Shown one piece after another: positions 6,296 to 26,287 of a stretch of 34,145 nt of DNA (the first letter of the stretch is position 1; each line of letters opens with the position of its first letter). The DNA is from Sulfolobaceae archaeon. GTDB lineage: Archaea; Thermoproteota; Thermoprotei_A; Sulfolobales; Sulfolobaceae. Position numbers and translations under genes: made by a program. The notes beneath the pieces were generated by a model. That model was not told the DNA's origin, did not search any database, and saw only the letters and a program-made list of their open reading frames with translations. Location of the stretch: NCBI GenBank assembly GCA_038893355.1, contig JAWARQ010000008.1, positions 1-34,145 of the forward strand, in the 5' to 3' direction.

Positions 6296-8278
6296 ATGAT
6301 GATATTGAAATTAATGATTGAAAATAAATTTCTACCACCTAGATATTTAGAGTTATATAAGAAGGCAATAAATTCCCCTGAAGAATTTTGGAAAGAAGTT
6401 ATAGAAGTTTCATCAAAAGATATATACTGGGCCAGAAAACCCGAGAGGATATTTGAATGGGAATACCCTAAGCCATTTAGATGGTTCATAGGCGGATATA
6501 CTAATGCAGGCTATAGTGCTGTTGATTATAAAGTTAATAGGTGTCCAAACAAGATAGCATATATTTACGTTAATCCAGAGATCGGTATAGAAAGGAAAAT
6601 AACTTATAAGGAGTTCTATGAAGTGGTAAATAGATTCTCTGCATCATTAAGGGCTTTGGGCGTAGGTAAAGGAGATACGGTTCTAGTTTACATGCCAAAC
6701 ACTATTGAGGCTGTAGCTTCAATAATAGCAACAGCTAGAACTGGCGCAGTTTCGTCTACAGTCTTTGCGGGTTTCGCTCCTAAGGCAATAGCTGATAGGA
6801 TAGACCTAGTAAGGCCTAAGGTTATATTTACTCAAGATTATAATATAAGGAGGGGTAAATTAATTAATTTAAAGCAAAATATTGATGACGCTTTAAAGCT
6901 TTCAGAATGGAAAGACGTTAAAGTAGTAGTAACTAGGAGGTTAAGTGATAAGCCAGAACCTAATATGGAGAGGTCTAGGGATATGTATTTAGAAGAGTTT
7001 TTAGAAGTAGGAAAATCTTATGATGCCTCTCCTATCTTCGTAGAGTCTAATGAACCATTACTAATAATGCCCACTTCTGGGACTACTGCAAAACCTAAAC
7101 CAGTAACTCATATGCATGGGGGGTATCAAGTATGGATTTGGTTTGCTGGTAAGATTGTTTATGGACTGGAGGAAAGTGACATTGTATTTAACACTTCCGA
7201 TATAGGCTGGATAGTTGGGCAAAGTTATATAATATTTGATCCCTTAATAAATGCATGTACTTCGATATTATTTGATGGAGCTATAGATAGTCCTAAGCCA
7301 GACATATTCTGGGAAATCGTTGAAAAATATAAACCATCATTAATATCAACATCACCCACTGCAGTTAGAATGCTTTATAAACTAGGCAAGGATAAGGCTA
7401 AGGCTCATGATTTAAGTTCTGTGAGGAGAGTATTAGTTGCCGGCGAAGTTCTGAACCCAGAAGTTTGGAAGTGGTTATATTACGAGATATTCGATGCTAA
7501 GATTCCGGTAATAGATCATATGTGGCAGACTGAAACTAGTGGACCACTATTCGGTTACCCTTATAGCCTAGTAAGGGATATTGGAATAGGTTTAGAAGTA
7601 TTGCCAATAAAGCCAGGCTCTGCAGGGATTCCGATGCCAGGGGTAGAGTTTGAAATAGTTAATGAAAAGGGTGAGGTTCAGCATGAGGAAAATGCTGGAA
7701 TAGTAGTAATAAAGAGACCTTTTCCAGGCTTAACGCCAACATTATGGAATGATCATGAGAGATATTTAAAGGATTATTGGGGAAGGATTGAAGGTAAGAG
7801 GGTATATTATACTGGAGATGCTGCAAAAGTAGATAAGGACGGCTATATCTTCTTCTTGGGAAGGGCTGATGAAGTTATAAAGATAGCAGGGCATAGAATA
7901 GGTACAATTGAGGTCGAGTCCGCATTATTAACTCACCCTGCAGTTGCGGAAGCAGCAGCTGTTGGTGTTCCAGATCCTATAAGGGGCGAGGCTTTAGCCT
8001 TATTTATAACATTAAAGCCCAATTATAAGCCTTCTCAAGAACTTGAGAAGGAATTAATAGAACATTTACGTAAAACTTTTGGTCCTATTGCAGTCGTTGC
8101 AGGAATTAGCTTCATGAACATGTTACCTAAAACTAGGAGCGGAAAGATCATGAGGAGAGTGTTAAAAAGGTTATGGACTGGAGAACCTCTAGGTGACATT
8201 TCAACAATAGAGGATGAGGCGTCTATTGAGGAGATTAAGGAAGTATTAAAAAACATTAAAAAATTGGAATTAAAATAA
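6296..8278 (+). CDS. AMP-forming acetate/short-chain acyl-CoA synthetase
   Basis: P-loop TSGTTAKPK, SDIGWIVG, DHMWQTETSG (retains the Trp before QTE that limits the acyl pocket in acetyl-CoA synthetases), YYTGD and PKTRSGKIMRR. The true start may be ATG 6314. Confidence 0.9.
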   Translation: MMILKLMIENKFLPPRYLELYKKAINSPEEFWKEVIEVSSKDIYWARKPERIFEWEYPKPFRWFIGGYTNAGYSAVDYKVNRCPNKIAYIYVNPEIGIERKITYKEFYEVVNRFSASLRALGVGKGDTVLVYMPNTIEAVASIIATARTGAVSSTVFAGFAPKAIADRIDLVRPKVIFTQDYNIRRGKLINLKQNIDDALKLSEWKDVKVVVTRRLSDKPEPNMERSRDMYLEEFLEVGKSYDASPIFVESNEPLLIMPTSGTTAKPKPVTHMHGGYQVWIWFAGKIVYGLEESDIVFNTSDIGWIVGQSYIIFDPLINACTSILFDGAIDSPKPDIFWEIVEKYKPSLISTSPTAVRMLYKLGKDKAKAHDLSSVRRVLVAGEVLNPEVWKWLYYEIFDAKIPVIDHMWQTETSGPLFGYPYSLVRDIGIGLEVLPIKPGSAGIPMPGVEFEIVNEKGEVQHEENAGIVVIKRPFPGLTPTLWNDHERYLKDYWGRIEGKRVYYTGDAAKVDKDGYIFFLGRADEVIKIAGHRIGTIEVESALLTHPAVAEAAAVGVPDPIRGEALALFITLKPNYKPSQELEKELIEHLRKTFGPIAVVAGISFMNMLPKTRSGKIMRRVLKRLWTGEPLGDISTIEDEASIEEIKEVLKNIKKLELK

Positions 8279-11180: not shown

Positions 11181-13607
11181 TTAAGGGAAGTAGGAATAAG
11201 GTATGTACAAAACTAGATAGGAAACAGGTAAAGTTAGCCCTAGTGCGTGAAGTGTACTATTCCTAATAGTTAAGGTAGTATTAGAGATAGTAGTCCTAGA
11301 TAGGTAAACGTCTGAGCCAGAGATCGTCTGTTGAGAGTTAGATATTGTAGAGCCGGAAGAGTATAACTTAGAGTTAGATACCGTAACTTGTGACCTATCT
11401 AAGTTAGAGTTAGTAAGATATATCGTACACGAATCCAGATTCTGATTAGAATTAGATATCGAAGAGCTGACTATGTATAAAGTTGAACCTTGGGCATTAA
11501 TCGTTGAGCCAGAGATTTGAGAGTTGGAAATGTAAACTTTTGAATTAGAAATCTGTTGTGTTGAGCCAGAGATTGTTGTGGTAGACGCGTTTAGTGTCGA
11601 CCCAGAAATGTAAACTTTTGAATTAGAAATCTGGCTGTTTGTTAGGTATACTGTTGAGCTTGATATATACTGTGTAGAACCAGAAATTATTACATTATTT
11701 GCGTATAGTTGTGAATTAGACAAGTAAATTATTGAATTCTGGATATTTGTAGATCCGGTTATTGAGACGTAAGAGTCATCGATGTACTGGGTTACTGAAG
11801 ATATTGAAGAGCTGTCCACATAAAGGTAAGAGTTGGATGAGATCCTTATTGGACTGGATCCTCCAGAAATACTAGTCTGAGAAAGCCTAACCGTAGAGTT
11901 AGATATATTCTGTGCAGAATTAATTATGGTACAACCAGTTGCAGTTAAAGAAGAACTTATTAGCGTCACACTTCCTCCAGAAATCGTAGAACTGGAAAGC
12001 GAAATATTAGAATTCACTATGTACTGATCTGATGAAGTTATACTAGAACCTATTGCCTGAAGAACTGAATTATAAATACTCATCTGTGATGATGAGGCTT
12101 CTACAGTAACCTGTAGGAGCTTAGAATTATAGATGTAGACTTGAGAGTTTGAAATGGATTGTGTAGATGAAGAAATTGTAGAATATGTTGAATTTAGTGT
12201 AGATGAAGAAATTGCTATGTTAGAGTTTGAAATGGTCGAGGACTGTAGGACTATGTTAGAGTTTGAAATGGATTGTGTAGATGATACTATATTCGAGTTT
12301 GATAATAATAAGTAAGAGCCACTAATACTAACACTTGCTGACTGAATCGTTGAGGAGTATAGATACATCTTAGAGTTTGATATTTGTGCAGATCCTCCAC
12401 CAGATATTATTGTATTTTGTAAGTTAATTATTGAATTTGATATTTGTTGGTTAGAATTAACAATCTTAGAGTTAACAAGGTTAAGAGTGGATCCAGAAAT
12501 CGTTAAAGAAGATCCAGATATTAAGGCAATTACATTATCTAGTGTTGAAGAACTTATCAGTGCATTTGAATTTGATATTTGTTGGTTAGAATTAACAATC
12601 TTAGAGTTAGTTAGATTGAGGTTAGAATTAACAATATTTATGTTACTCGACGAGATTGAAACACTGTTTAGCCCGATCTTTGATGAGTAGACAAATTGCT
12701 GTGAATTCGTTATTATCACATTCGTGCCAGTAACTACGGAACTATTTATTGTCATACTTGATGAAGAAATTGTTGAATCTCTAAATTGTTGTTGGGTATT
12801 TATCAAGTAGGCATTTGAGTTTACTAGAGTTAACCTAGTTGCCGAAGCATATGAGTTTATTAGATAGAATGTAGTAGATTCAAATTGTATATTATTTAAA
12901 ATATTATTAGTATTTATATTTTTAAATAAAGAATTAATAAAGATATCATTAGTTAAATTGAAGAATGAGTTTTGATTTGTTGTATTATAAAGGAAAAGAG
13001 CAGTTCCAAATATGCTTATCGAGTCGTTAAAGTTTATTGCATTAATTAAAGTTAAGTTAGAGTTGTAAACGTTTTGCTTTGAATAATTTATCATCGAGTT
13101 AGTTAGGTTTATAAATGTAGAGTAAAGATAAAAGGTCGAATTTACTAATGAGGACTTAAAAATTGAAAGTTTAGAGTTGTAAACGTTTTGCTTTGAATAA
13201 TTTACTGTTGAATTAATTAAATATATTGTAGAGTTAACTATAGCGAATTCTGAATTCATGAATTTTGTAGAGTTAATTATCAACGTAGAGTTAAAGAATC
13301 CCGAACCAATCGCAGAAACTAAGGAGTTCTTAAGTAGCTGAAATGAGTTTTTGAAGGTAAAATTAGAAGCAAATACTGTAGAATTATATATGTAAACCTT
13401 CACGTTATCAAAGGTAGAGTTGTATACATATAGAACGGAATTATATACGTATAGAATAGTGTTGTATAGCTGTGAATTAAACAACCTTTGTACTGAATTA
13501 GATATATAGAGAATTGATTGTTTTTGGCTTGATTGGCTATTTGATAGTATTGCTATAGATGGTATTAAGAGTAATATAACTAGCAGTAGGATTACCTTAA
13601 TATTCAT
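11181..13607 (-). CDS. Secreted Ser/Asn/Ile-rich repetitive beta-solenoid protein (808 aa)
   Basis: N-terminal signal peptide, followed by a long array of about 38-aa repeats (e.g. LYANNVIISGSTQYISSSTVYLTNSQISNSKVYISGST). Many NxS/T sequons. Confidence 0.85.
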   Translation of the reverse strand: MNIKVILLLVILLLIPSIAILSNSQSSQKQSILYISNSVQRLFNSQLYNTILYVYNSVLYVYNSTFDNVKVYIYNSTVFASNFTFKNSFQLLKNSLVSAIGSGFFNSTLIINSTKFMNSEFAIVNSTIYLINSTVNYSKQNVYNSKLSIFKSSLVNSTFYLYSTFINLTNSMINYSKQNVYNSNLTLINAINFNDSISIFGTALFLYNTTNQNSFFNLTNDIFINSLFKNINTNNILNNIQFESTTFYLINSYASATRLTLVNSNAYLINTQQQFRDSTISSSSMTINSSVVTGTNVIITNSQQFVYSSKIGLNSVSISSSNINIVNSNLNLTNSKIVNSNQQISNSNALISSSTLDNVIALISGSSLTISGSTLNLVNSKIVNSNQQISNSIINLQNTIISGGGSAQISNSKMYLYSSTIQSASVSISGSYLLLSNSNIVSSTQSISNSNIVLQSSTISNSNIAISSSTLNSTYSTISSSTQSISNSQVYIYNSKLLQVTVEASSSQMSIYNSVLQAIGSSITSSDQYIVNSNISLSSSTISGGSVTLISSSLTATGCTIINSAQNISNSTVRLSQTSISGGSSPIRISSNSYLYVDSSSISSVTQYIDDSYVSITGSTNIQNSIIYLSNSQLYANNVIISGSTQYISSSTVYLTNSQISNSKVYISGSTLNASTTTISGSTQQISNSKVYISNSQISGSTINAQGSTLYIVSSSISNSNQNLDSCTIYLTNSNLDRSQVTVSNSKLYSSGSTISNSQQTISGSDVYLSRTTISNTTLTIRNSTLHALGLTLPVSYLVLYIPYSYFP
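12431..12609. repeat. Exact 44-bp intragenic direct repeat (12431-12474 / 12566-12609)
   Basis: TTGAATTTGATATTTGTTGGTTAGAATTAACAATCTTAGAGTTA occurs twice, 135 bp apart. Other exact pairs in this gene are 11527-11555/11605-11633, 12144-12170/12258-12284 and 13057-13090/13171-13204. Confidence 0.9.
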
Positions 13608-13891
13608 GTGGAAAGATAAATACTTTAATCCTTTTAAGCTTTTCTTATAACTAGTAAATATCTAGTATATTATCATTTTATTATATTTTTATCACTGACT
13701 TTATATTATTTTTATCACTCTTTTTCTAAAATTATTACTTATTACCATTTTCACTTCTTTACTATTTAAAAATTACTATTATACGGCATTTTTTGAGCCC
13801 TCATTAAAAATATAATGCTAGGTGGTTATAGCCTTCTAACACTCTACAAAAAATATATCTCGAAAAAATAATAAGATATATCTTGAGGTAT

Positions 13892-14902
13892 CTAAACTTG
13901 TAAAAATTTTTCAACATCCGATCTTGTGGTAAATACCCCTAAATCTTCCAACTTCATTTTATCAATTCTTTCTAGGTTAATTCTCATTTTTTCTAAACTT
14001 CTTAACCTATGCCTTACTACCTTACTTGAAAAAATTATTAGCTTCTCAAATCCGTTCTCCTCATAAATCCACTTAAAGAACTCTCCCCACGCATCTTTCT
14101 TATTCCTCCACTTATCTATCTCATAATTTATAAACTCACTAAGCGATCTTATCGCTAGACCACCGACGTAGCTAAAATACTCTAGAAAGAATTCGTAATA
14201 TAAGGAATCTCTCAGTATTTTGCTTAGTAAGTAATTCCCAAATACTATATGCCTAGAATCTTCAATAAAAGACACTACTATAAAATTATTTAAGTCCTTC
14301 AATTCTTTACCCTTTGTAAAGAATGTTTTGAAGAAATAATATCCTACCACAGCGTCGATTCCTTCTAATGCTAAAAAGAAGGTCGTCAAATACTTTATCA
14401 TGTTCTCTTCATTAGGGTTCATTTCGAGATTATATGAAAAATTAGGCAATACTTCATAAGTCAATTGCTTAAAGGAAGCATTATACTTTATCGCTTCTTC
14501 GGCATCAATTTTACCAAATATCTTATCAATATACTCCCTTATTAGAAGAGTTTGTTTAAACTCTTCTTCTATTACTTTAATCGCAAATAGAAATTCTTCC
14601 TTAAATCCCAATCTATCTAGTACTCTAGCTAACGTAATAGATTCTCTACTTAGTGCTTCTTTACCTACAAGGAACATACTGAGAACTCCTAACACTGCAT
14701 CTTTTTCAGCTTGTGATAGAGAAGTTATTGACGATATATCATTATTAACAACGAAACTACTCAAGCTCTCATACCTAAAATCTAATAATCTTTTACATAA
14801 AGACTCTCTATCTATACCGTTTCGCGCAATAGGATAAGAAATTCTATATACTCTATTGCCTGCCACTATCAAAGGCGTAGCGTTCTTTGTTGTCTCTTCC
14901 AT
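13892..14902 (-). CDS. Ferritin-like R2lox paralog with degenerate metal site
   Basis: Aligns end to end with 19477-20523, for example LEGIDAVVGYYF vs IEGIAAETGFYF, SRHIVFG vs SRHVAFG, and WGEFFKWIYEENG vs WGNYFKWVYEENG. The ligand positions read K81, E114, Q117, E180, D215 and H218. Confidence 0.85.
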   Translation of the reverse strand: MEETTKNATPLIVAGNRVYRISYPIARNGIDRESLCKRLLDFRYESLSSFVVNNDISSITSLSQAEKDAVLGVLSMFLVGKEALSRESITLARVLDRLGFKEEFLFAIKVIEEEFKQTLLIREYIDKIFGKIDAEEAIKYNASFKQLTYEVLPNFSYNLEMNPNEENMIKYLTTFFLALEGIDAVVGYYFFKTFFTKGKELKDLNNFIVVSFIEDSRHIVFGNYLLSKILRDSLYYEFFLEYFSYVGGLAIRSLSEFINYEIDKWRNKKDAWGEFFKWIYEENGFEKLIIFSSKVVRHRLRSLEKMRINLERIDKMKLEDLGVFTTRSDVEKFLQV

Positions 14903-15185
14903 GTATACACATTCTAAATAATACTAAATAAATTTTATAGTAGTTATAGGTTTGCTAGTTTTTCTTATATCTGCCTTGAATCTCAAAGATTTCGTTAACC
15001 TCAAAATTCTTGTATAAGCATAGATAATTTAGGTTTAAACCTATGTCTTCACTATTTATATTTAGTCAATATAATCTGTATATTTATATCTAATTATATT
15101 CAATATATTTCACTAGATTCGTATAAAATAAAAGTATTGAAGTATCATTATTAATAAATATAATATTTATATAAAGAAAGATATA

Positions 15186-15791: not shown

Positions 15792-17318
15792 CTAACCTCT
15801 TCTCCTTAAAAGCATTATTAAAGATATTATCACCGCTGCTATTACTATTATTATTATGAGTGTACCTCTATTATTATAACCTATCGTTGACTCTAAATTG
15901 CTTGATATATTATAACTATTTATTGTAATTTGGGTAGTAAAATTGACTAATGTATGATTTTGGGTTGTAATTGAAGATTGGGTACTTACATTATTATTCT
16001 TATTACTAGTGATGATAGTTGTTTGTTGAATAGTTGTCTCTTTACTCGTCGTGACGTTAGTAATGTTAGTAGACGGTGCCCTAGTCATGGTAGTCGTTGT
16101 AGGAATCTCGCCCCATTTTACTTGATATATAGATAACTTCAGATAATTCCCCATTCTCTCTGCAGAATAAACATAATCGCCTATTGCAGCTACTGCATTA
16201 CTTACTGTTATGTTATAAAGGATTTTTCCGTTAGACACATCAATTAGGTAAACTGAGTTATTAATAACTAACGAAACGTTTCTCTGACTATACATCATTA
16301 CTATTGTACCATTACTACTATAACTATTACTGAGCGTTATTACATTTTTTATTAATCCGGAATAAGAATTAATATTACATATTGAGATTGATTTACTCGT
16401 TTGGTTGAGGAAGTATAGGCTAGAGTTCAAAATCCCTATAGGAATTACTTGTAATGTAGTATTACTTAAATTTATAATTTTATTTATTGAAAAATTAAAA
16501 ATAAAAAATAAAATTATTTTATTAGAGTTATATAGTATTAATGAATTCCCTATCTGATACGCCCACACATTCTCACTGTCTAACTTATAACTCCAAATTA
16601 GCTTTGTCTGATATAACTCGTAAGGGTTGGTATATAAGTAGGCTAATAAATATGAGCCAGTAGAATTCTTATTTGCTAAGTAGACTATGTTATATTTTCC
16701 GCCCTTAAGTAAGTCCTCTCCATATGCAGATGCGAATAGAGGAACTCCAGTTATAGGTTTATAATTGGTTATTGTATTGTACAGAAAATACCAACCAGGC
16801 TGGTTCGGGTAATAGCTTACTAGAACTATTGTTGAATTATATACAGTATTTGGGATATTTGACTTAAGAGAGTTAGGTGGGGTAAAGTCTGGTATTTGTA
16901 GCCTAGTAGGGTATAAGTAGCTATACTGTTGATAGATACTATTTGCTATAATGTTCTTATAATAGAAAACTATTTGATACCCATTAGTATATGCTGAAGC
17001 CATAATTAGACTATTTGGTATATATCGAGAAGTTATATTAAGGAGTAATGAGGTAGAATTTGGAGTTACTAGAATATAACTTATGTTTAAAGTCCCTTGT
17101 GTTGTCGATACAGAAGGCACTACTATACCGTTTTCCCAGGGTATTATGGAAAGCTGGGGTTCTAGGGAATTATTGTAAGGGAAGTAATACTCTTTTAATA
17201 ACTCTGGATAAAATCCTACTTTAGCGTTTGGGATAAATTGATTGCTATTTTGTATAATTAATGATAATAGTAAAATTGAAATGATGAACATAACTGTAAT
17301 ATATTCTCTTCTTTCCAT
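15792..17318 (-). CDS. Membrane-anchored cell-surface glycoprotein
   Basis: Signal peptide, a beta-rich Asn/Tyr/Ser ectodomain, a Thr/Ser-rich linker, and a C-terminal TM helix ending LLRRRG. Confidence 0.8.
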   Translation of the reverse strand: MERREYITVMFIISILLLSLIIQNSNQFIPNAKVGFYPELLKEYYFPYNNSLEPQLSIIPWENGIVVPSVSTTQGTLNISYILVTPNSTSLLLNITSRYIPNSLIMASAYTNGYQIVFYYKNIIANSIYQQYSYLYPTRLQIPDFTPPNSLKSNIPNTVYNSTIVLVSYYPNQPGWYFLYNTITNYKPITGVPLFASAYGEDLLKGGKYNIVYLANKNSTGSYLLAYLYTNPYELYQTKLIWSYKLDSENVWAYQIGNSLILYNSNKIILFFIFNFSINKIINLSNTTLQVIPIGILNSSLYFLNQTSKSISICNINSYSGLIKNVITLSNSYSSNGTIVMMYSQRNVSLVINNSVYLIDVSNGKILYNITVSNAVAAIGDYVYSAERMGNYLKLSIYQVKWGEIPTTTTMTRAPSTNITNVTTSKETTIQQTTIITSNKNNNVSTQSSITTQNHTLVNFTTQITINSYNISSNLESTIGYNNRGTLIIIIVIAAVIISLIMLLRRRG

Positions 17319-17542: not shown

Positions 17543-18718
17543 TTAATATATTAATGAAATTATTCCTGATATTAATACTAATGATGTCATTAACCAGTAG
17601 AGTATTTTTCTTGGGCCTTTATATGCAAATTCTCCCATAACCTTTCTATCGCTTACTAGGTAGCCTATTAGTATTGCTGGAATTGAGACTATTATTGGGT
17701 ATATTGATAAAATTTCTAATATTGTATAAACTATATTTTGATAGTTCATTAATGCTATTATTATTATTGCTGGCAGTGATTCTATCGAGTAAATTGCTAG
17801 GAAGCTTTTTATATCATTATTCTTTCTTAAAGCTTCAAGTATACCCCAAGAGCTTCCTAAGGAGATTACTATTAGTGAGAGTAGGCCCGAGAATATGAGC
17901 CCAATACCGAATACTAATGGTGAAAAGTTTCCTACTATGCTTAAGGATTCACTAATGTTATGATAGTTTAATGGATCCTTTATCCCCAAACCCGTTGTCG
18001 ACATTTCTATAAATATCATTATTAACTCCGAGACTATTGATCCTATAATTGTCTCGATGCTCACCCATTTAACCTTGTCCTTTACCTCATAATCTAACCT
18101 AGAGTATTTATACGCTGTAGCCGAAGCTTGGTATATTGGCATGAACGGCATTATTACAGCACCAACGTTTGTTGCTAAGAAGAATAGGAAATTTGGGTCT
18201 GTAGAGAAGTAGAATATGGACTGTGTAGGATCAATACCCCTAATTATTAATTGTATTAAAAATGCTAAGAATAGTATAAATGAGATTAATATTAAAAATT
18301 TTTCGAAGGACTGATATTTACCTTTAATAACTAGCATAATATGAATTAGAAAGAATGATGGTAAGCTAATGTATGGTGGTATTCCAATAAGTAAGCCACC
18401 CAAAACAATTCCGATATACTCAACAATATAGGAAGCCATATCAGCAATAAATATTGGAGCCATAGTTAAGATTGCAACATAGCCAGAAAACCTAGACCTT
18501 ATTAACTCACCTAAACCTAGGCCGGTCACAGCACCAATCCTACCACAAGCCTCTTGGATAATAAATAATGGTACTGTGAGTAGCACCAAAAACCAAACCA
18601 GACCATAGCCATAAATCTGCCCATTAGATACTGCAGCGATAACACTAGCAGTGTCGATATTAGCAATCATTACAATCCATGCAGGTCCAAAGAGCCTCGA
18701 AATATCCTTTATACTCAT
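17543..18718 (-). CDS. NRAMP-family divalent metal transporter (divergent motif)
   Basis: FGPAWIVMIANIDTAS (TM1), YGYGLVW..IQEACGRIGAVTGLGLGELIR and VGAVIMPF (TM6), with about 11 TM helices. Confidence 0.85.
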   Translation of the reverse strand: MSIKDISRLFGPAWIVMIANIDTASVIAAVSNGQIYGYGLVWFLVLLTVPLFIIQEACGRIGAVTGLGLGELIRSRFSGYVAILTMAPIFIADMASYIVEYIGIVLGGLLIGIPPYISLPSFFLIHIMLVIKGKYQSFEKFLILISFILFLAFLIQLIIRGIDPTQSIFYFSTDPNFLFFLATNVGAVIMPFMPIYQASATAYKYSRLDYEVKDKVKWVSIETIIGSIVSELIMIFIEMSTTGLGIKDPLNYHNISESLSIVGNFSPLVFGIGLIFSGLLSLIVISLGSSWGILEALRKNNDIKSFLAIYSIESLPAIIIIALMNYQNIVYTILEILSIYPIIVSIPAILIGYLVSDRKVMGEFAYKGPRKILYWLMTSLVLISGIISLIY

Positions 18719-18867: not shown

Positions 18868-19347
18868 ATGTCTCAAGAAGTTTTGTTTCCGAGTAGGGAG
18901 TGGGCTGAAGAATGGTGTAGATTGTTAAACGAAAGTAAAGAATATTTTGAAGCTGCGAAAACAGCACCATGGGATTCTGTAGTCTTAATATCAACTAACG
19001 TACCAGAGAATGTTAGAAAGGCTTTAATAGAATGGGAAAAGCAAAGGGGAAGAGAAGTCGCAGACCCTAATTCCACTGTAGGCGCAATAAAATTAAATAT
19101 AAAGGGTGGAAAGTGTCTAGGCGCAGAGTTCCATACAACTGGTAACGTTAGTGGTGCAATAGTTTTAGAGGCTCCGTATGAAACATGGGTTAAAATACTT
19201 CAAGGGAAATTAGATATTACCGTAGCATTACTTGGCGGTTCAATAAAAGTTAAGAAGGGAAGTTTAACAGAGCTAGCTAGGTATACAAATGCTGCAGTAA
19301 TAATGGCAAATTTAAGTCGTAAAGTTAAATCTAAGATACCTACCTAA
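18868..19347 (+). CDS. SCP2 sterol/lipid-carrier domain protein
   Basis: FPSREWAEEWCRLLNESKEY..W, LEAPYETWVKILQGKLD..ALLGGSIKVKKGSL, the SCP2-family pattern. Confidence 0.85.
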   Translation: MSQEVLFPSREWAEEWCRLLNESKEYFEAAKTAPWDSVVLISTNVPENVRKALIEWEKQRGREVADPNSTVGAIKLNIKGGKCLGAEFHTTGNVSGAIVLEAPYETWVKILQGKLDITVALLGGSIKVKKGSLTELARYTNAAVIMANLSRKVKSKIPT

Positions 19348-19476
19348 TACTGCGATAATTTGTTTAAACAAATCACGTTTTTTGTTTTAATATTCTTCGA
19401 GATGTTTATACATAAAACACTGTTATAAATAAAAAACGTTTTTATAGATATATCGGAAAATAGGTGTGGGAGTAGT

Positions 19477-20523
19477 ATGAAAACTGAGAAGGAACCACCT
19501 ATAATAATTACTCCAGAAGGTAAGGTGGTTAGAACCCATTATTATAGTGTTAAGAAGGGTATAGAGTGGAAATCTTTTCCAATGAGGCTATGGGAAATCT
19601 CACAAAGGCTCTTCTGGTCCCCACTTCAATTTGAAAGACATATTCAAGAAGATGCTGAAGATTGGAAAAAGATGACAGAAGCTGAGAGAGAAATTTCGGA
19701 ATACATAGCAACTTTGTTTGCTGCTGGCGAGGAAAGTGTAGCAAGATATCTAGCGGAATTAGTAGTGGCTTTAGACGAATTAGGCTATACAGAGGAAGTA
19801 TTGTTCTTAAATCAATTTCAACAGGAGGAATCTAGGCATACTGATGCATTTAGGAGATGGATGGATACAGTTGGAATTCCTGCAGATGTTGAAAAGTGGG
19901 CTATTATGAATAAACCATATTATGAACTGTTTTACATAGCATTACCATCTGCTGCACACAGTGTTAAGAATAACCCTACCCCAGAAAATATAATAAGATT
20001 TACTGCAACATATATGTTTTCTATAGAGGGAATAGCAGCAGAAACTGGGTTCTATTTCTGGAGGACAATGTGGGAGAATGGAAAACATCTAAGAGGGATA
20101 TATGAAATAGTAAAAAGGGTAGCATTAGATGAGTCTAGGCATGTAGCCTTCGGAACCTATTTGACTACAATGTTAATTAGCGAATATGGTGAAGAATTAT
20201 ATGAGAAGTTTATCGAGTACTTTAACTATGCAGGTGGTCTAGGAGTTAGGTTAGTAGGAGAGATAATAGAATATGAAATGAATAAGTGGGAAGGTCAGAG
20301 AGAAAAATGGGGTAATTACTTTAAGTGGGTTTATGAAGAAAATGGATTAGGTTCACTAACCGCTTATGCTGCAAAAATGGTACAAAATAGGCTTTATTAC
20401 GTAAATAAATTAAAGAATGCTAATAAAGAGAAATTAAGATTTTTACCAATAAGAGAACTAGATGTAATAGAATCTGAAGACGTTATAGAGAAGTACTTAA
20501 CTCCAGAGTTTACTCCACAATAA
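19477..20523 (+). CDS. R2-like ligand-binding oxidase (R2lox; Mn/Fe ferritin-like)
   Basis: FPMRLWE..FWSP, FAAGEESV (E85, V88), EESRH (E118, H121), TYMFSIEG (Y179, E184) and DESRHVAFG (E219, H222). This is the complete 4Glu/2His site plus the Tyr/Val pair that cross-links in R2lox. Confidence 0.88.
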   Translation: MKTEKEPPIIITPEGKVVRTHYYSVKKGIEWKSFPMRLWEISQRLFWSPLQFERHIQEDAEDWKKMTEAEREISEYIATLFAAGEESVARYLAELVVALDELGYTEEVLFLNQFQQEESRHTDAFRRWMDTVGIPADVEKWAIMNKPYYELFYIALPSAAHSVKNNPTPENIIRFTATYMFSIEGIAAETGFYFWRTMWENGKHLRGIYEIVKRVALDESRHVAFGTYLTTMLISEYGEELYEKFIEYFNYAGGLGVRLVGEIIEYEMNKWEGQREKWGNYFKWVYEENGLGSLTAYAAKMVQNRLYYVNKLKNANKEKLRFLPIRELDVIESEDVIEKYLTPEFTPQ

Positions 20524-22945: not shown

Positions 22946-24589
22946 ATGTTTAACAATATTTTTATTATGATGTCTTGGTATTACAACTATCAGCTAACGA
23001 TAGATAAAATACTCGAAGCTGGAGAAACTGTGTGGCAAAATAGAGAAATAGTCTATAGTGATAAGAGGAGGTATACATTTAAGAAGTTTGCAGAATCAGT
23101 AAAGGTTCTGGCTAATAATCTAAAGAAGCTCGGAATAAAGAAGGGTGATAGAATAGCAGTTGTTGACTGGGATACAGACGTCTATATGCATTCTTATTAT
23201 GCAATTCCAATGATTGGGGCAACTCTCCATACGGTTAATATCAGATATCCTATAGAACTCATAATAAAGACAATTCTTCACGCTGAAGATAAATGGATAA
23301 TCGTAAGGGACGACATGATAGGTCTAGTAGAAGATATAAGGAACTTCAATCCAAACATAAAGTTTATAGTATATAATGATGATCAAGAGAAGATAAAGAC
23401 TGATGAAAAAACAATAAACTTCTGGGACCTATTATCTGGAGAACCTAAATACGATGCAGATGAAGAAGGGTTAAGAGAAGACATGATGGCTACATTATTC
23501 TACACCTCAGGGACTACGGGGGATCCCAAAGGAGTTTGGTTCACACATAGGGATATAGTCCTGCATACTTTATCCTTAGCAGTACTGTCTAGGGCACCAC
23601 CATTAGAATTAACGACTAAGGATGTGTTAATGATTCTAGTCCCAATGTTCCATGTACACTCTTGGGGATTCCCGTATGTAGCATTACTTACTGGCGCTAA
23701 ATATGTATTGCCCGGGCCTTATAATCCGTCTAAAGAATTGCAACTAATTGCAAGAGAAGGTGTAACTTTTTCCGCAATGGTTCCTACGATTCTCTTTATG
23801 CTTTTAAGCCAACCAGATATTGATAACTATAAGGAGCATCTAAAAAGGCTTAAGATTGCAATAGGTGGGGAAAGGTTAAACGAAGGTCTAGCGAGAAAGG
23901 CTAGAGAGTATGGTATTACACTCATAGGAGGCTACGGATTATCTGAAACCTGCCCTGTATTAACAGTTGCTTATTATAATTCATTAATCGAAAATCTAGA
24001 TCCTGAAACTAAATTCCAAAAACAAATTTCCGCAGGAGTTCCTATGCCATTTGTTAAAATTAAAATAGTTGACGAAGAAGGTAATGAGTTACCAAGAGGT
24101 AAAATTGGAGAAGTTGTAGTTAGAGCACCTTGGGTTACGAGAGAATATTTCAAAGATCCTGAAAAAACTACTAAACTATGGAGGGGAGGATGGCTACACA
24201 CTGGAGATTTAGGCTATATAGATGAATATGGTTACTTAAATATAGTCGATAGAGATAAGGACGCAATAAAGAGTGGCGGCGAATTTATTCCGTCATTACT
24301 TTTAGAGAACGTTATATCATTACATCCTAAAGTTGCAGAAGTTACTGTGGTTGGGGTAAAGCATGAAAAATGGGGTGAAAGGCCCGTAGCCTTTATAGTA
24401 CCTAATGGTGAGTTAGATGAAATGGAGCTAAGGAAGTTCTTAATGCAAAAGGTAGATGAAGGTAAAATTCAAAAGTGGTGGATTCCAGATAAGATATTCT
24501 TTGTGGACTATATTCCAAAGACTTCTACGAATAAGGCTGATAAGAAGATATTAAGAGAAATGGCTAATCAAGCAATGCAACAGAAATAA
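22946..24589 (+). CDS. Fatty-acid--CoA ligase (AMP-forming)
   Basis: FYTSGTTGDPKG, PMFHVHSWG, GYGLSET, WLHTGD and KSGGE. The true start is likely the Met near 22967-22970 (MSWYYNYQLT), matching the paralog. Confidence 0.93.
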   Translation: MFNNIFIMMSWYYNYQLTIDKILEAGETVWQNREIVYSDKRRYTFKKFAESVKVLANNLKKLGIKKGDRIAVVDWDTDVYMHSYYAIPMIGATLHTVNIRYPIELIIKTILHAEDKWIIVRDDMIGLVEDIRNFNPNIKFIVYNDDQEKIKTDEKTINFWDLLSGEPKYDADEEGLREDMMATLFYTSGTTGDPKGVWFTHRDIVLHTLSLAVLSRAPPLELTTKDVLMILVPMFHVHSWGFPYVALLTGAKYVLPGPYNPSKELQLIAREGVTFSAMVPTILFMLLSQPDIDNYKEHLKRLKIAIGGERLNEGLARKAREYGITLIGGYGLSETCPVLTVAYYNSLIENLDPETKFQKQISAGVPMPFVKIKIVDEEGNELPRGKIGEVVVRAPWVTREYFKDPEKTTKLWRGGWLHTGDLGYIDEYGYLNIVDRDKDAIKSGGEFIPSLLLENVISLHPKVAEVTVVGVKHEKWGERPVAFIVPNGELDEMELRKFLMQKVDEGKIQKWWIPDKIFFVDYIPKTSTNKADKKILREMANQAMQQK

Positions 24590-24592
24590 AAA

Positions 24593-26287
24593 CTATTTCT
24601 TACCTTTTTTCTCCTTATCTTGTAAAACTCTCCATAATATTTTTCCAGAACCACTCTTTGGTAAAGATTCTACAAATTCAATAACTCTAGGATATTCATA
24701 GGCAGACATCCTCTCCTTAGCCCAATTAATTATATCATTTTCAGTTATTTTACCCTTATACTCAGGCTTTAATACTACATATGCCTTGACTTCTTCACCG
24801 ACTCTCGAATCTGGAGTCGCAACTACTGCAACCTCTAAAATCGCTGGGTGTTGATACATTATATTCTCGATTCTTGTAGGCCATACTTTAAATCCGGCCC
24901 TATTAATCATTCTCTTTAATCTATCCACAAAGAAGAAATAGCCTTCTTCATCCATGTAGCCTATGTCTCCAGTTCTAAAATACTTCTTACCATTAATCTC
25001 TATGAATGCCTTCTTAGTCTCTTCTTCGTTATTCCAGTAACCTAGAAAGATATTCGGGCCTCTAACAACTATTTCTCCTTCCTTTCTCGGCGGTAAGACT
25101 TCTCCAGTATTAGGATCTATTACTAATGCGTCTACACAGAAGTGAGGAATTCCTAAGCATTGTAACTTTGGTCTATGGGGAGGATTAACATGGGTTTGTG
25201 AAATAGTCTCCGTTAACCCATAACCCTCTACGTATGTTAAGCCTAATAAATCCTTAAGCCTTTTCGCTACTGCTTCTGGCATTGGAGCTCCACCACCTCC
25301 TACAACAACTAGAGATTTTAAATTCCTCTTCTCTATCCCTGGCGTTGCTAAAAGGTCTACAACCATTGTAGATATATTGACCCAATGTGTTACCTCATAC
25401 CTCTCTATTGCATCGATTGCTGTATCCCTATCCCATGCTGTCATTAAGACTATTTTAGCACCAACATATAATGGTACGTTTATGGTATGTATTAATCCAG
25501 TAACGTGGAATATAGGTAATGCCGCTAAGTAGACTGCAGACGGAACTGCCGTAAACCAATAAGCAGAGCCTAATGTCGTAGCCCATATTGTAAAGTGACT
25601 ATGAATACACCCTTTAGGCAGTCCAGTACTACCAGAAGTATACGGTATCATTGCGATATCGTTAACAGTAACTTCTATTGGTGGTGGAGAAACTCTAGCA
25701 CTCATCACTTCATTCCATGCTATGACCCATGATGGTACTTCAGGATCGTTTTGCATTATAGGATGAGGTCTTAGCTCTGGCTTTTCTGGTAAATAGTCTC
25801 TAAATCTACACGCAATTATGTTCTTAACATCAGTTTTATCCTTTATTTTATTCACTTTACCTAATAAATTAGTCGTAGTTACTAAGACTTTTGAACCACT
25901 GTCCTTAAGGATATACTCTAATTCATCCTCTGCAAGTAATGGATTAATTGGAACTACAATTCCATTGGCCCTAAGTGTTCCAAAATATGCAATAATCCAT
26001 TGAGGCGTATTAGGCATGAATAGTGCAACTCTATCCCCCTTCTTAACCCCTATTTCATTAACGAATGTTGCAAATTTATTAATACTCTCCCATAACTCTT
26101 TGTAACTAATTTTTCTCCCATAATAAATTATTGAATCTTTATCAGGATATCTGGTAGCTGAAACTTCCACAATATTAAATAAGGGAACTCTAGGATAGTC
26201 TAATTTTCTCGGTACCCCTGGGGGCCAGTACTTAAACCATGGTCGATCTTCTGGAACATCACACTCATAATAATTCTTGTTTGTCAT
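24593..26287 (-). CDS. Long-chain fatty-acid--CoA ligase
   Basis: YTSGSTGLPKG, EGYGLTET, YFRTGD, RAGFKVWP and LPKSGSGK. Confidence 0.93.
   Translation of the reverse strand: MTNKNYYECDVPEDRPWFKYWPPGVPRKLDYPRVPLFNIVEVSATRYPDKDSIIYYGRKISYKELWESINKFATFVNEIGVKKGDRVALFMPNTPQWIIAYFGTLRANGIVVPINPLLAEDELEYILKDSGSKVLVTTTNLLGKVNKIKDKTDVKNIIACRFRDYLPEKPELRPHPIMQNDPEVPSWVIAWNEVMSARVSPPPIEVTVNDIAMIPYTSGSTGLPKGCIHSHFTIWATTLGSAYWFTAVPSAVYLAALPIFHVTGLIHTINVPLYVGAKIVLMTAWDRDTAIDAIERYEVTHWVNISTMVVDLLATPGIEKRNLKSLVVVGGGGAPMPEAVAKRLKDLLGLTYVEGYGLTETISQTHVNPPHRPKLQCLGIPHFCVDALVIDPNTGEVLPPRKEGEIVVRGPNIFLGYWNNEEETKKAFIEINGKKYFRTGDIGYMDEEGYFFFVDRLKRMINRAGFKVWPTRIENIMYQHPAILEVAVVATPDSRVGEEVKAYVVLKPEYKGKITENDIINWAKERMSAYEYPRVIEFVESLPKSGSGKILWRVLQDKEKKGKK

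What the first reader, a model, noticed from the sequence alone, without database searches (positions are those of the whole stretch)
13892..14902. Intact but metal-site-degenerate R2lox paralog: a possible beta-subunit for an archaeal Mn/Fe oxidase
Seen in the sequence: this 336-aa ORF aligns over its whole length with the R2lox at 19477-20523 and has no stops or frameshifts. The ligands E85/E118/H121/E184/E219/H222 become K81/E114/Q117/E180/D215/H218, and the cross-link pair V88/Y179 becomes L84/F175. Established: in R2lox the first Glu and first His bind site 1 (Mn), and characterised R2lox proteins are homo-oligomers. Ferritin-like oxidases have repeatedly evolved non-catalytic paralog partners (sMMO/BMM beta subunits, PaaC, yeast Rnr4). 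Inference: this is a metal-free or mono-metal structural partner, with Lys filling site 1, that forms a heterodimer with the active R2lox. I am not aware of that architecture being described for R2lox.
Basis: partly seen in the sequence, partly recalled or inferred. Interest (0 to 1): 0.85.

Follow-up and report, generated by a model that had tools for sequence, protein, structure and literature searches.

The report
Degenerate R2lox paralog kept by selection
A hot-spring archaeon carries an intact but heavily altered copy of a manganese-iron lipid oxidase gene in which lysine replaces a metal-binding glutamate; selection has kept it, but whether it pairs with the active copy is still open.

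Summary
It encodes a 336-aa protein that aligns end to end with the R2lox at 19477-20523 (31% identity, E 3e-65).

The R2lox fold is kept (AF2 pLDDT 94; the best Foldseek hits are R2lox structures). Site 1 is rebuilt (E->K, H->Q, two family-conserved Trp lost). The cross-link pair is gone (V->L, Y->F). The site-2 residues and the bridging Glu stay (E114, E180, D215, H218).

Only one full-length ortholog was found (62% identity). It keeps K, L, F and D but has His where this protein has Gln. Neutral drift to 62% identity kept the frame open in 0 of 2000 simulations.

The clade is the fast-evolving sister of the active type, from a duplication that probably predates the split from Sulfolobus acidocaldarius. 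That species keeps the active type without this paralog. Glu->Lys with loss of the Tyr recurs in three other rare R2lox lineages.

The heterodimer idea stays open. The model passes its controls, but the pass may only reflect solved R2lox dimers. The genes are not co-transcribed, and the predicted interface evolves faster than the rest.

Verdict: a new variant of a known kind, of moderate interest.

The parts
13892..14902 (-). P0002: 336-aa divergent R2lox paralog (K81/L84/E114/Q117/F175/E180/D215/H218). R2lox fold; site 1 rebuilt; no cross-link pair.
   Evidence: ORF, alignment, residues. (NF006200 152.5 bits, below the 194 cutoff). (AF2 pLDDT 94; best Foldseek hits are R2lox). (62% ortholog P0004). 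(neutral simulation).
19477..20523 (+). P0001: canonical R2lox (E85/V88/E118/H121/Y179/E184/E219/H222), the active-type paralog.
   Evidence: PF00268; NF006200 394.9 bits against a 194 cutoff; 7qbk 188 bits. (72% ortholog in S. acidocaldarius genomes G009 and G019).
18868..19347 (+). 159-aa SCP2-like protein just upstream of the active R2lox. It is the conserved neighbour and the better-supported candidate partner of P0001.
   Evidence: weak SCP2 hit, E 0.23. (hhalign probability 98.2%, E 4e-14, to the N-terminal domain of SCP2-R2lox fusion proteins). (those fusions carry PF02036 + PF00268). (72.5% ortholog beside the R2lox ortholog in G009).
14925..14939 (-). AT-rich TATA-like stretch (TTTATTTA at -30..-23, TATAAAA at -37..-31 from the ATG). 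This is a possible own promoter for a leaderless transcript.
   Evidence: Read. Not tested against chance in this 34% G+C DNA.
13845..13870 (-). Two T6 runs within about 45 nt after the stop codon, a plausible archaeal termination signal. The next gene is 284 bp away.
   Evidence: Read. Gene spacing. Inference only.
17543..18718 (-). Nramp-family divalent metal (Mn/Fe) transporter gene lying between the two paralogs.
   Evidence: PF01566, E 5e-47.. No match in the 35 kb of G009 around the R2lox ortholog.

Best explanation
P0002 is a functional, selection-maintained derivative of the P0001-type R2lox that has given up the canonical Mn/Fe oxidase chemistry.

Shown:
- It arose by duplication of the subtype that carries the C-terminal KW...WG.FFKW.YEENG insertion.
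- It then evolved about 4-5 times faster on its stem branch.
- It settled into a new constraint regime shared with its one known ortholog.

Shown by sequence:
- Site 1 is dismantled. The first Glu is Lys. The site-1 His is Gln here but His in the ortholog. Both family-conserved Trp are gone. The D-E pair before the last His reads E-D.
- The Val-Tyr ether cross-link cannot form (Leu and Phe).
- The bridging Glu and the site-2 set (E180, D215, H218) persist, as do the family-conserved R217, G181 and Y188.

Inferred mechanism: the protein folds as an R2lox helix bundle. It binds at most one metal, at site 2, which is preformed and filled first in real R2lox. The Lys81 ammonium takes the place of the site-1 cation and pairs with E114 and/or the carboxylate head of a fatty-acid-type ligand. 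It therefore acts as a non-oxidising, ligand-binding module in the lipid-metabolism neighbourhood in which it sits.

Whether it works as a homodimer or paired with P0001 is unresolved. I put about 25% on the heterodimer.
For: Paralogy and fold: (31% identity, E 3e-65, full length). (pLDDT 94, pTM 0.92). (the best Foldseek PDB hits are R2lox structures, TM by target up to 0.87; true R2 proteins follow only from E 1e-4).

Origin. (P0002, P0004) is sister to (P0001, S. acidocaldarius ortholog) with support 100/99. The stem is 1.71 against 0.37 changes per column.

Selection:
- Ortholog P0004 has the same length and 62-63% identity.
- 0 of 2000 neutral simulations to 62% identity stay free of stops; the mean is 9.5 stops.
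- The altered motifs GKEAL, EEF, LEGIDA and IEDSRHI are identical in both orthologs.

Departure from the family regime: of 34 columns that are >= 88% conserved in 52 other R2lox rows, P0002 deviates at 17 and P0004 at 14. P0001 deviates at 4 and the median is 1. W47 and W63 (P0001 numbering) are lost.

Cross-link: V72L alone prevents the cross-link in GkR2loxI (PMC6060897, abstract).

Recurrence: Glu->Lys at the first ligand, together with loss of the cross-link Tyr, also occurs in P0038, P0067/P0080 (85% identical to each other) and P0068. The tree needs 4 changes. A single K clade is rejected (AU p = 0.011).

Precedent for a working R2 with Lys in the metal site: class Ie R2e, QSK/VPK variants (PMC11846895, passages).

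Context: acyl-CoA synthetases, acyl-CoA dehydrogenase, alcohol dehydrogenase and a hydrolase surround the locus.
Against: - No metal, ligand or expression data exist. No RNA run holding the locus was listed.
- The clade is tiny. It has one genome, one full-length metagenome ortholog and a few fragments. It was not found in 46 other genomes of the family or in a 401-genome sample of the phylum.
- Protein databases hold only called ORFs, so broken copies would be under-seen. Two short P0004-like fragments (P0052, 41 aa; P0063, 39 aa with a scrambled middle) may come from a frameshifted copy or from a poor assembly.
- The retained site-2 residues could serve structure rather than metal binding.
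- The other K variants are singletons or clusters of at most 4 on short contigs. Their function is equally unknown.
- Ligand binding through Lys81 is pure inference. I could not inspect model coordinates.
Confidence: 0.5

Rival explanations
1. P0002 is a non-catalytic, beta-prime-like subunit that forms an R2-type heterodimer with the active R2lox P0001, as yeast Rnr4 does with Rnr2. It stabilises P0001 or helps load it with metal.
For: - complex prediction: score 0.86, 0.86 and 0.82 in three runs. The best of 3 controls was 0.00. That mark was reached by 58 of 80 solved complexes and by 2 of 110 mismatched pairs. The runs agree in at least 87% of contacts, and the partner's pLDDT is at least 87.
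- My own alignments were used, so those calibration counts hold only roughly. R2lox and R2 homodimers are solved, so the pass may be from memory and shows likeness rather than binding.
- The two paralogs lie 4.6 kb apart in the same lipid-metabolism neighbourhood.
- Arg93, conserved in P0002 and P0004, would face itself across the two-fold axis in a homodimer. In the heterodimer model it faces Val97 and Ala93 of P0001.
- Circumstantial lead: two P0004-like fragments (P0052, P0063) and one P0001-type fragment (P0017, 69% identical to P0001) are each recorded on a single JGI contig of 2343 bp. If that is one contig, the two types are adjacent in a second organism.
- Precedent for beta-beta-prime R2 heterodimers: PMC3824934 (passages).
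Against: - The genes are on opposite strands with four genes between them. No shared upstream motif rises above chance (163 of 300 and 299 of 300 shuffles reach the observed match).
- The P0001-type ortholog (72% identity) exists in S. acidocaldarius G009 and G019. Four R2lox-like matches were found in each, and the four copies read in G009 are all canonical; none is the K paralog. The tree places the duplication before that split (a later duplication has AU p = 0.044, which is borderline).
- Predicted interface columns are less conserved than the rest between P0002 and P0004 (34/67 against 175/267, Fisher p = 0.034). In the active type they are not (49/69 against 200/274, p = 0.76).
- The conserved, fusion-supported neighbour of P0001 is the SCP2-like protein, not P0002.
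Confidence: 0.25
2. P0002 is still an enzyme with a new cofactor. It is either a mononuclear non-heme iron site (site 2) next to Lys81, or a metal-independent site in the manner of class Ie R2, acting on a lipid substrate.
For: - E114, E180, D215 and H218 are retained across a stem of about 1.7 changes per column. H117 is retained in the ortholog.
- Tyr188, the counterpart of GkR2lox Y175, is retained in both orthologs. It is described as lying about 5 A from the metal site and possibly involved in substrate oxidation (PMC4118035, passages).
- The same Glu->Lys change recurs in four lineages while the other ligands are mostly kept.
- The class Ie precedent shows that ligand-substituted R2 proteins can be active.
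Against: - Both family-conserved Trp, the cross-link Tyr and (here) the site-1 His are lost. P0002 deviates at 17 of 34 family-consensus columns. This looks like release from redox constraints.
- No NrdI-like or reductase partner is evident beside the gene.
- The clade is very rare.
Confidence: 0.15
3. P0002 is a decaying duplicate with no function. The open frame is a survivor of chance.
For: - The distribution is sporadic: found in 1 of 47 genomes of the family.
- Divergence is very fast.
- It fails the R2lox model cutoff.
- Possibly frameshifted P0004-like fragments exist.
Against: - 0 of 2000 neutral simulations keep the frame at the observed divergence.
- The ortholog has the same length, with only two alignment gap columns.
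- The altered active-site motifs are identical in the two orthologs.
- The model is confident (pLDDT 94).
Confidence: 0.05

Closest known systems
R2-like ligand-binding oxidases (R2lox): GkR2loxI (4HR0), MtR2lox Rv0233 (3EE4), SaR2loxI/II (6QRZ, 7QBK)
   Same: Same fold and overall architecture. P0002 shares the subtype-specific C-terminal insertion with P0001 and the S. acidocaldarius ortholog. It keeps the bridging Glu, the site-2 Glu and His, the R-H motif, and the Gly before the first ligand.
   Different: The first ligand Glu is Lys. The site-1 His is Gln here. The site-2 Glu is Asp. The cross-link Val and Tyr are Leu and Phe. Two conserved Trp are lost. P0002 scores below the NF006200 cutoff and has no Pfam hit. 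Characterised R2lox proteins carry a Mn/Fe cofactor and a cross-link (PMC9314684 and PMC4118035, passages).
Non-catalytic R2 paralogs that form beta-beta-prime heterodimers (yeast Rnr2/Rnr4; the name Rnr4 is recalled, the general statement comes from PMC3824934 passages)
   Same: A paralog of a ferritin-like di-metal protein with lost ligands, encoded in the same genome as an intact copy. An R2-type heterodimer is predicted.
   Different: No evidence of binding exists beyond a model that may be from memory. Four or five of the six ligand positions are still ligand-like. The active type lives without it in S. acidocaldarius. No R2lox heterodimer turned up in my literature searches.
Class Ie ribonucleotide reductase R2e (QSK/VPK variants)
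   Same: An R2-fold protein in which conserved carboxylate ligands are replaced, one of them by Lys, yet the protein is functional (PMC11846895, passages).
   Different: In R2e three carboxylates are replaced and the Lys sits at another ligand position. A neighbouring Tyr becomes DOPA with the help of NrdI. Here only one carboxylate is replaced by Lys, the cross-link Tyr is Phe, and no NrdI-like gene is seen nearby.
SCP2-R2lox fusion proteins of bacteria (P0011, P0020, P0045 and others; Atlas clusters mostly Actinomycetota)
   Same: They show that R2lox works with an SCP2-type lipid carrier. The window encodes that carrier as a separate 159-aa gene beside P0001.
   Different: P0002 has no SCP2-like neighbour. 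The genome assembly (84% complete) holds only one SCP2-like copy.

Membership tests
R2lox (NCBIfam NF006200, R2-like ligand-binding oxidase equivalog) | Score at or above the curated cutoff of the family model | tested here: not met
   P0002 scores 152.5 bits against a cutoff of 194. P0001 scores 394.9. P0002 has no Pfam family at E <= 0.01.
R2lox | Ferritin-like R2 helix-bundle fold closest to solved R2lox structures | tested here: met
   AF2 pLDDT 94, pTM 0.92. The best Foldseek PDB hits are all R2lox, TM by target up to 0.87, E about 3e-9; true R2 proteins appear only from E 1e-4.
R2lox | Six metal ligands E/E/H/E/E/H | tested here: not met
   K81/E114/Q117/E180/D215/H218. The ortholog has K/E/H/E/D/H.
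R2lox | Val-Tyr pair that forms the ether cross-link | tested here: not met
   L84 and F175, in both orthologs. V72L alone blocks cross-linking (PMC6060897, abstract).
R2lox | Mn/Fe cofactor and bound long-chain fatty acid | not testable with these tools
   Needs purified protein (ICP-MS, EPR, lipid MS).
Non-catalytic paralog partner (Rnr4-like beta-prime) | Loss of metal ligands with an intact frame under selection | tested here: met
Non-catalytic paralog partner (Rnr4-like beta-prime) | Co-occurrence with the active paralog wherever it is found | tested here: inconclusive
   Met in the single genome available. The P0004 contig is 2464 bp and could not be fetched. There is a lead of shared contig length, 2343 bp, for K-type and P0001-type fragments. 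The active type occurs without the K type in G009 and G019.
Non-catalytic paralog partner (Rnr4-like beta-prime) | Physical heterodimer with the active subunit | tested here: inconclusive
   The model passes (0.86 against 0.00 for the best control), but like complexes are solved. No homodimer comparison was possible. Interface columns are less conserved than the rest.
Class Ie-like metal-free R2 | Three carboxylate ligands replaced (QSK/VPK), an adjacent Tyr that becomes DOPA, and an NrdI partner | tested here: not met
   Only one carboxylate is replaced by Lys. The Tyr at the cross-link position is Phe. No NrdI-like gene appears among the neighbours scanned. The definition comes from PMC11846895 passages.

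The most novel reading that the evidence does not exclude
Lys-for-Glu at the first ligand marks a recurrent, so far undescribed state of R2lox proteins. It arose at least three or four times. In it the Mn site is replaced by a lysine ammonium, and the protein works with one metal or none, a parallel to the class Ib to class Ie transition in ribonucleotide reductase. In this archaeon the Lys form would additionally pair with the canonical R2lox as the first R2lox heterodimer.
Probability: 0.2. Interest if true: 0.75.

Novelty: new variant of a known kind. Interest (0 to 1): 0.5.

Why it matters
The physiological function of R2lox is still unknown. Its eight active-site residues are almost invariant: 120 of 120 top representatives and 30 of 30 genome copies here. 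A copy that has rewritten site 1 yet is kept by selection is therefore a natural experiment. It can show what the scaffold does without the Mn/Fe oxidant: ligand binding, metal handling or partnering. The same logic led to class Ie ribonucleotide reductase, which was recognised from substituted ligands. The case is testable with ordinary expression, metal analysis and pull-down. The clade is very rare, however, so its general importance is limited unless the other Lys variants prove to be functional too.

Tried and rejected
- Fetching the ortholog's DNA and context. Two metagenome-contig scans found no relative. The first genome-contig scan also found none, not even S. acidocaldarius, so close kin seem to be left out of that collection. 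The second gave only two canonical Chloroflexota relatives of P0067, each with a single R2lox. As a result no dN/dS and no neighbourhood could be obtained for P0004.
- A 401-genome sample of the class of G438 held no member of the P0067/P0080 Lys lineage. The best identity was 53%, 64 genomes had one R2lox match each, and the 30 loci read were all canonical.
- Expression: no RNA holder was listed among the 17 runs. This is no evidence either way.
- Shared regulatory motif between the upstream regions of the two paralogs: nothing above chance. GTTTAAAC occurs 3 times against 0.92 expected, and 10 of 100 shuffles reach 3. It is absent from the intergenic region before the R2lox ortholog in S. 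acidocaldarius.
- I first thought that loss of E189 (P0001 numbering) was tied to the Lys variants. I rejected this because that column is mostly Ile, not Glu, in the further R2lox relatives tabulated.
- DUF998, the upstream neighbour, as a co-inherited partner: rejected, because DUF998 occurs in 30 of 47 genomes of the family.
- Hogbom 2010, cited in PMC3824934 for 'rare exceptions' among R2lox residues, could not be found in the library. It may already mention such variants. Supplementary files of papers were not consulted.
Full report
OBSERVATION

The window has an open frame at 13892-14902 on the minus strand only. It encodes P0002, 336 aa. BLASTP against the product of 19477-20523 (P0001, 348 aa) gives 31% identity over 339 columns with 8 gap positions, E 3e-65.
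- P0001: E85, V88, E118, H121, Y179, E184, E219, H222.
- P0002: K81, L84, E114, Q117, F175, E180, D215, H218.

PDB entry titles returned by Foldseek name the E69D, V72A/I/L and Y162F mutants of GkR2loxI. This fits the Glu, Glu+3 and Glu(site 2)-5 spacing used to assign these columns.

P0001 is a regular R2lox:
- PF00268 at E 3e-16.
- NCBIfam NF006200 at 394.9 bits against a cutoff of 194.
- Best PDB match SaR2loxII, 7qbk, 188 bits.

P0002 is clearly of the same family but falls below the cutoffs: NF006200 152.5 bits, no Pfam hit, 7qbk 77 bits. The genome assembly (1.40 Mb, 17 contigs, 84% complete) holds only these two R2lox-like genes.

HOW UNUSUAL THE SUBSTITUTIONS ARE

The eight columns read E V E H Y E E H in:
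- 52 of 60 aligned rows. The rows were the window's two proteins, P0004, eight copies from four Sulfolobaceae genomes, and 49 cluster representatives of 260-380 aa from the phmmer search.
- 120 of 120 best-scoring R2lox cluster representatives from a profile search.
- 30 of 30 copies read from Chloroflexota genomes.

I took the columns in which at least 88% of 52 other rows agree; there are 34. P0002 deviates at 17 of them and P0004 at 14. P0001 deviates at 4, and the median over all rows is 1. Besides the ligands, the clade has lost both family-conserved tryptophans (W47 and W63 of P0001). It also reads E-D where the family reads D-E before the last His.

RELATIVES

A search of 5.8 billion proteins found three hits at E <= 1e-10: the window's own record, P0004, and a distant canonical R2lox.
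- The window's own record is P0003.
- P0004 is 336 aa, 62% identical, and sits on a JGI metagenome contig of 2464 bp.

An exhaustive phmmer scan of 1.84 billion representatives gave 71 hits at E <= 0.001. Only two were below 1e-30: the own cluster, and P0006, the S. acidocaldarius ortholog of P0001 at 34%. Short fragments P0052 (41 aa), P0063 (39 aa) and P0071 (82 aa) also look like members of the clade.

P0004 keeps K, L, F and D but has His where P0002 has Gln. The altered motifs GKEAL, EEF, LEGIDA and IEDSRHI are identical in the two proteins.

With P0002 as query, the only matches at E <= 1e-30 among 47 genomes of the family were G000 itself and the P0001-type genes of G009 and G019. The same three appeared at E <= 1e-25 in a 401-genome sample of the phylum. 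G009 and G019 are S. acidocaldarius, going by the names attached to P0006 and P0077. Their copy is 72% identical to P0001. All four R2lox copies of G009 are canonical. This matches the statement that S. acidocaldarius encodes four R2lox homologues (PMC9314684, passages).

SELECTION

I could not obtain the DNA of P0004, so dN/dS was not computed. As a substitute I mutated the P0002 gene at random, using the window's base composition and a transition bias of 2, until protein identity fell to 62%. None of 2000 runs kept the frame free of stops; the mean was 9.5 stops. Two orthologs of equal length, with only two gap columns between them, are therefore maintained by selection. One caveat applies: protein databases list only called ORFs, so decayed copies would be missed. 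P0063 has a scrambled middle that may be a frameshift or an assembly error.

ORIGIN

In a 60-row tree and in a careful 20-row tree, (P0002, P0004) is sister to (P0001, S. acidocaldarius ortholog) with support 100 and 100/99. The stem of the Lys clade is 1.3-1.7 changes per column against 0.37-0.38 for the active type. Both types share a C-terminal insertion (KW...WG.FFKW.YEENG) that other R2lox groups lack. A duplication after the split from S. acidocaldarius is marginally rejected (AU p = 0.044). The paralog is therefore probably old and was lost in, or never fixed in, the Sulfolobus line, which still keeps the active type.

RECURRENCE OF THE LYS STATE

- Lys at the first ligand, together with loss of the cross-link Tyr, also occurs in P0038 (K V E H H E D H), P0067 and its 85%-identical relative P0080 (K M E H I E E H), and P0068 (K L E H C D E H).
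- These proteins are 17-22% identical to P0002 and P0004, lack the insertion, and keep the W-x-P motif.
- On the tree the Lys state needs four changes. Holding all five Lys rows together costs 92 log-likelihood units (AU p = 0.011).
- All come from short metagenome contigs, in clusters of one to four sequences.
- The Lys rows, including P0002 and P0004, are the six strongest outliers in the consensus count.
- Other rare departures exist: P0084 (A...A), P0089 and P0111 (Asp), P0069 (Lys at the E219 column).
- In the Lys rows the other ligands are mostly retained. That argues for a specific alternative state rather than random decay, but no function is known for any of them.

STRUCTURE AND THE HETERODIMER QUESTION

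AlphaFold2 with a 54-row alignment gives pLDDT 94 and pTM 0.92. The best Foldseek PDB hits are all R2lox structures.

Complex prediction was run on P0001 and P0002, each with its 54-row alignment:
- Scores were 0.86, 0.86 and 0.82. The best of three controls was 0.00.
- That mark was reached by 58 of 80 solved complexes and by 2 of 110 mismatched pairs.
- The runs agree in at least 87% of contacts, and the partner's pLDDT is at least 87.
- Because my own alignments were used, those counts hold only roughly.
- The interface is the R2-type dimer, and R2lox dimers are solved. The pass may therefore be from memory and does not separate a heterodimer from homodimers.

I then used the interface residues that the tool listed, 69 alignment columns in all:
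- Identity between P0002 and P0004 is 34/67 at the interface against 175/267 elsewhere (Fisher p = 0.034).
- For P0001 and P0006 it is 49/69 against 200/274 (p = 0.76).

So the interface is the less constrained part of the Lys clade. That is not what an obligate partner of a conserved interface would show. The comparison is crude, because 'elsewhere' includes the buried core.

One feature points the other way. Arg93, conserved in P0002 and P0004, would face Arg93 across the two-fold axis of a homodimer. In the heterodimer model it faces Val97 and Ala93 of P0001.

GENOMIC CONTEXT

- P0002 has 283 bp of AT-rich spacer upstream, with TATA-like stretches at -37 to -23. Two T6 runs follow its stop, and the next gene is 284 bp away. 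It looks monocistronic. This is inference, not tested.
- The gene order is: 808-aa gene (-), P0002 (-), DUF998 (-), 508-aa gene (-), Nramp (-), then on the other strand the 159-aa gene, P0001, alcohol dehydrogenase, acyl-CoA dehydrogenase and acyl-CoA synthetase.
- Within the 35 kb fetched around the P0001 ortholog, S. acidocaldarius has homologs of the 808-aa and 508-aa genes, the 159-aa gene, the R2lox, the dehydrogenases and the synthetase. It has no P0002 type there.
- The 159-aa protein is an SCP2-like lipid carrier. hhalign gives probability 98.2%, E 4e-14, against the N-terminal domain of bacterial proteins in which PF02036 (SCP2) is fused to an R2lox domain. The Atlas lists such fusion clusters.
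- The SCP2-like protein is the conserved and fusion-supported companion of the active R2lox. P0002 has no such neighbour, and the assembly holds one SCP2-like copy.

A LEAD THAT COULD NOT BE FOLLOWED

P0052 and P0063 are 93% and 74% identical to parts of P0004. P0017 is 69% identical to the last 117 residues of P0001. Each is recorded on one JGI contig of 2343 bp. If this is the same contig, the two types are adjacent in a second organism. That would favour a functional link. The tools at hand could not fetch it.

READING

- Shown: an intact, selected, fast-evolved sister of the active R2lox type. It has the R2lox fold, a rebuilt site 1, no cross-link pair, and retained site-2 residues.
- From the literature: V72L alone blocks the cross-link (PMC6060897, abstract). 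In R2lox, site 2 is preformed and filled by Fe first, while site 1 is disordered in the apo state (PMC4118035, passages). R2 proteins with ligands replaced, one of them by Lys, can be functional (class Ie; PMC11846895, passages).
- Inferred: P0002 binds at most one metal, at site 2. Lys81 supplies the positive charge of the lost site 1 and may hold the carboxylate of a fatty-acid ligand. The protein no longer performs Mn/Fe oxidase chemistry.
- Open: whether it acts alone or as a partner of P0001.

LITERATURE

- A search for R2lox with 'heterodimer' returned 13 papers, 11 listed. I read passages of PMC3824934 and PMC4118035 and only the search listing of the others. None describes an R2lox heterodimer with a degenerate paralog.
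- A search for R2lox with 'metal-free' and 'lysine' returned one paper, on CADD (listing only).
- PMC3824934 cites Hogbom 2010 for 'rare exceptions' among R2lox-specific residues. I could not find that paper, so such variants may have been noted before.
- Supplementary files were not consulted.

VERDICT

This is a new variant of a known kind, of moderate interest.

Noticed in passing
window 18868-19347 (+): The 159-aa ORF just upstream of the active R2lox is an SCP2-like protein. hhalign gives probability 98.2%, E 4e-14, to the N-terminal domain of bacterial SCP2-R2lox fusion proteins. It is 72.5% conserved next to the R2lox ortholog in S. acidocaldarius. This is a Rosetta-stone hint that R2lox receives its lipid from an SCP2-type carrier.
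   Followed up: partly
proteins P0038, P0067/P0080, P0068 (metagenome proteins, not in the window): Three further R2lox lineages carry Lys at the first metal ligand and have lost the cross-link Tyr. They are independent of the window's clade: the tree needs 4 changes, and the AU test rejects one clade at p = 0.011. All are rare and sit on short contigs.
   Followed up: partly
proteins P0084, P0069 (not in the window): Other rare ligand variants of R2lox. P0084 has Ala at both the first ligand and the site-2 Glu but keeps the Tyr. P0069 has Lys at the column of E219.
   Followed up: no
window 15030-15043 and 19359-19372: Two perfect 14-bp palindromes share the core GTTTAAAC (TAGGTTTAAACCTA and TTTGTTTAAACAAA). 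One lies upstream of P0002, the other between the SCP2-like gene and P0001. The core occurs 3 times in the window against 0.92 expected (10 of 100 shuffles reach 3), and it is absent from the intergenic region before the R2lox ortholog in S. acidocaldarius. This may well be chance.
   Followed up: partly
window 17543-18718 (-): An Nramp-family Mn/Fe transporter gene lies between the two R2lox paralogs, 758 bp from the start of the Mn/Fe R2lox gene and divergent from the SCP2-like gene and R2lox pair. It has no match in the 35 kb of S. acidocaldarius DNA fetched around the R2lox ortholog.
   Followed up: partly
window 11181-13607 (-) and 15792-17318 (-): Two large ORFs (808 and 508 aa) have no Pfam or NCBIfam family. 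The 808-aa protein is internally repetitive, with several overlapping tblastn matches. Both have homologs near the R2lox ortholog in S. acidocaldarius.
   Followed up: no
G009:C1:1836760-1837299 and G009:C1:1832270-1833043: In S. acidocaldarius a DUF998 gene lies about 3.7 kb from another R2lox paralog. In the window a DUF998 gene is the upstream neighbour of P0002. DUF998 is common in the family (30 of 47 genomes), so this may be incidental.
   Followed up: no
window 6296-8278, 22946-24589, 24593-26287, 31782-33383: Four acyl-CoA/AMP-forming synthetase paralogs fall within 34 kb, together with an acyl-CoA dehydrogenase, an alcohol dehydrogenase and an alpha/beta hydrolase. This is a dense lipid-metabolism region.
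   Followed up: no
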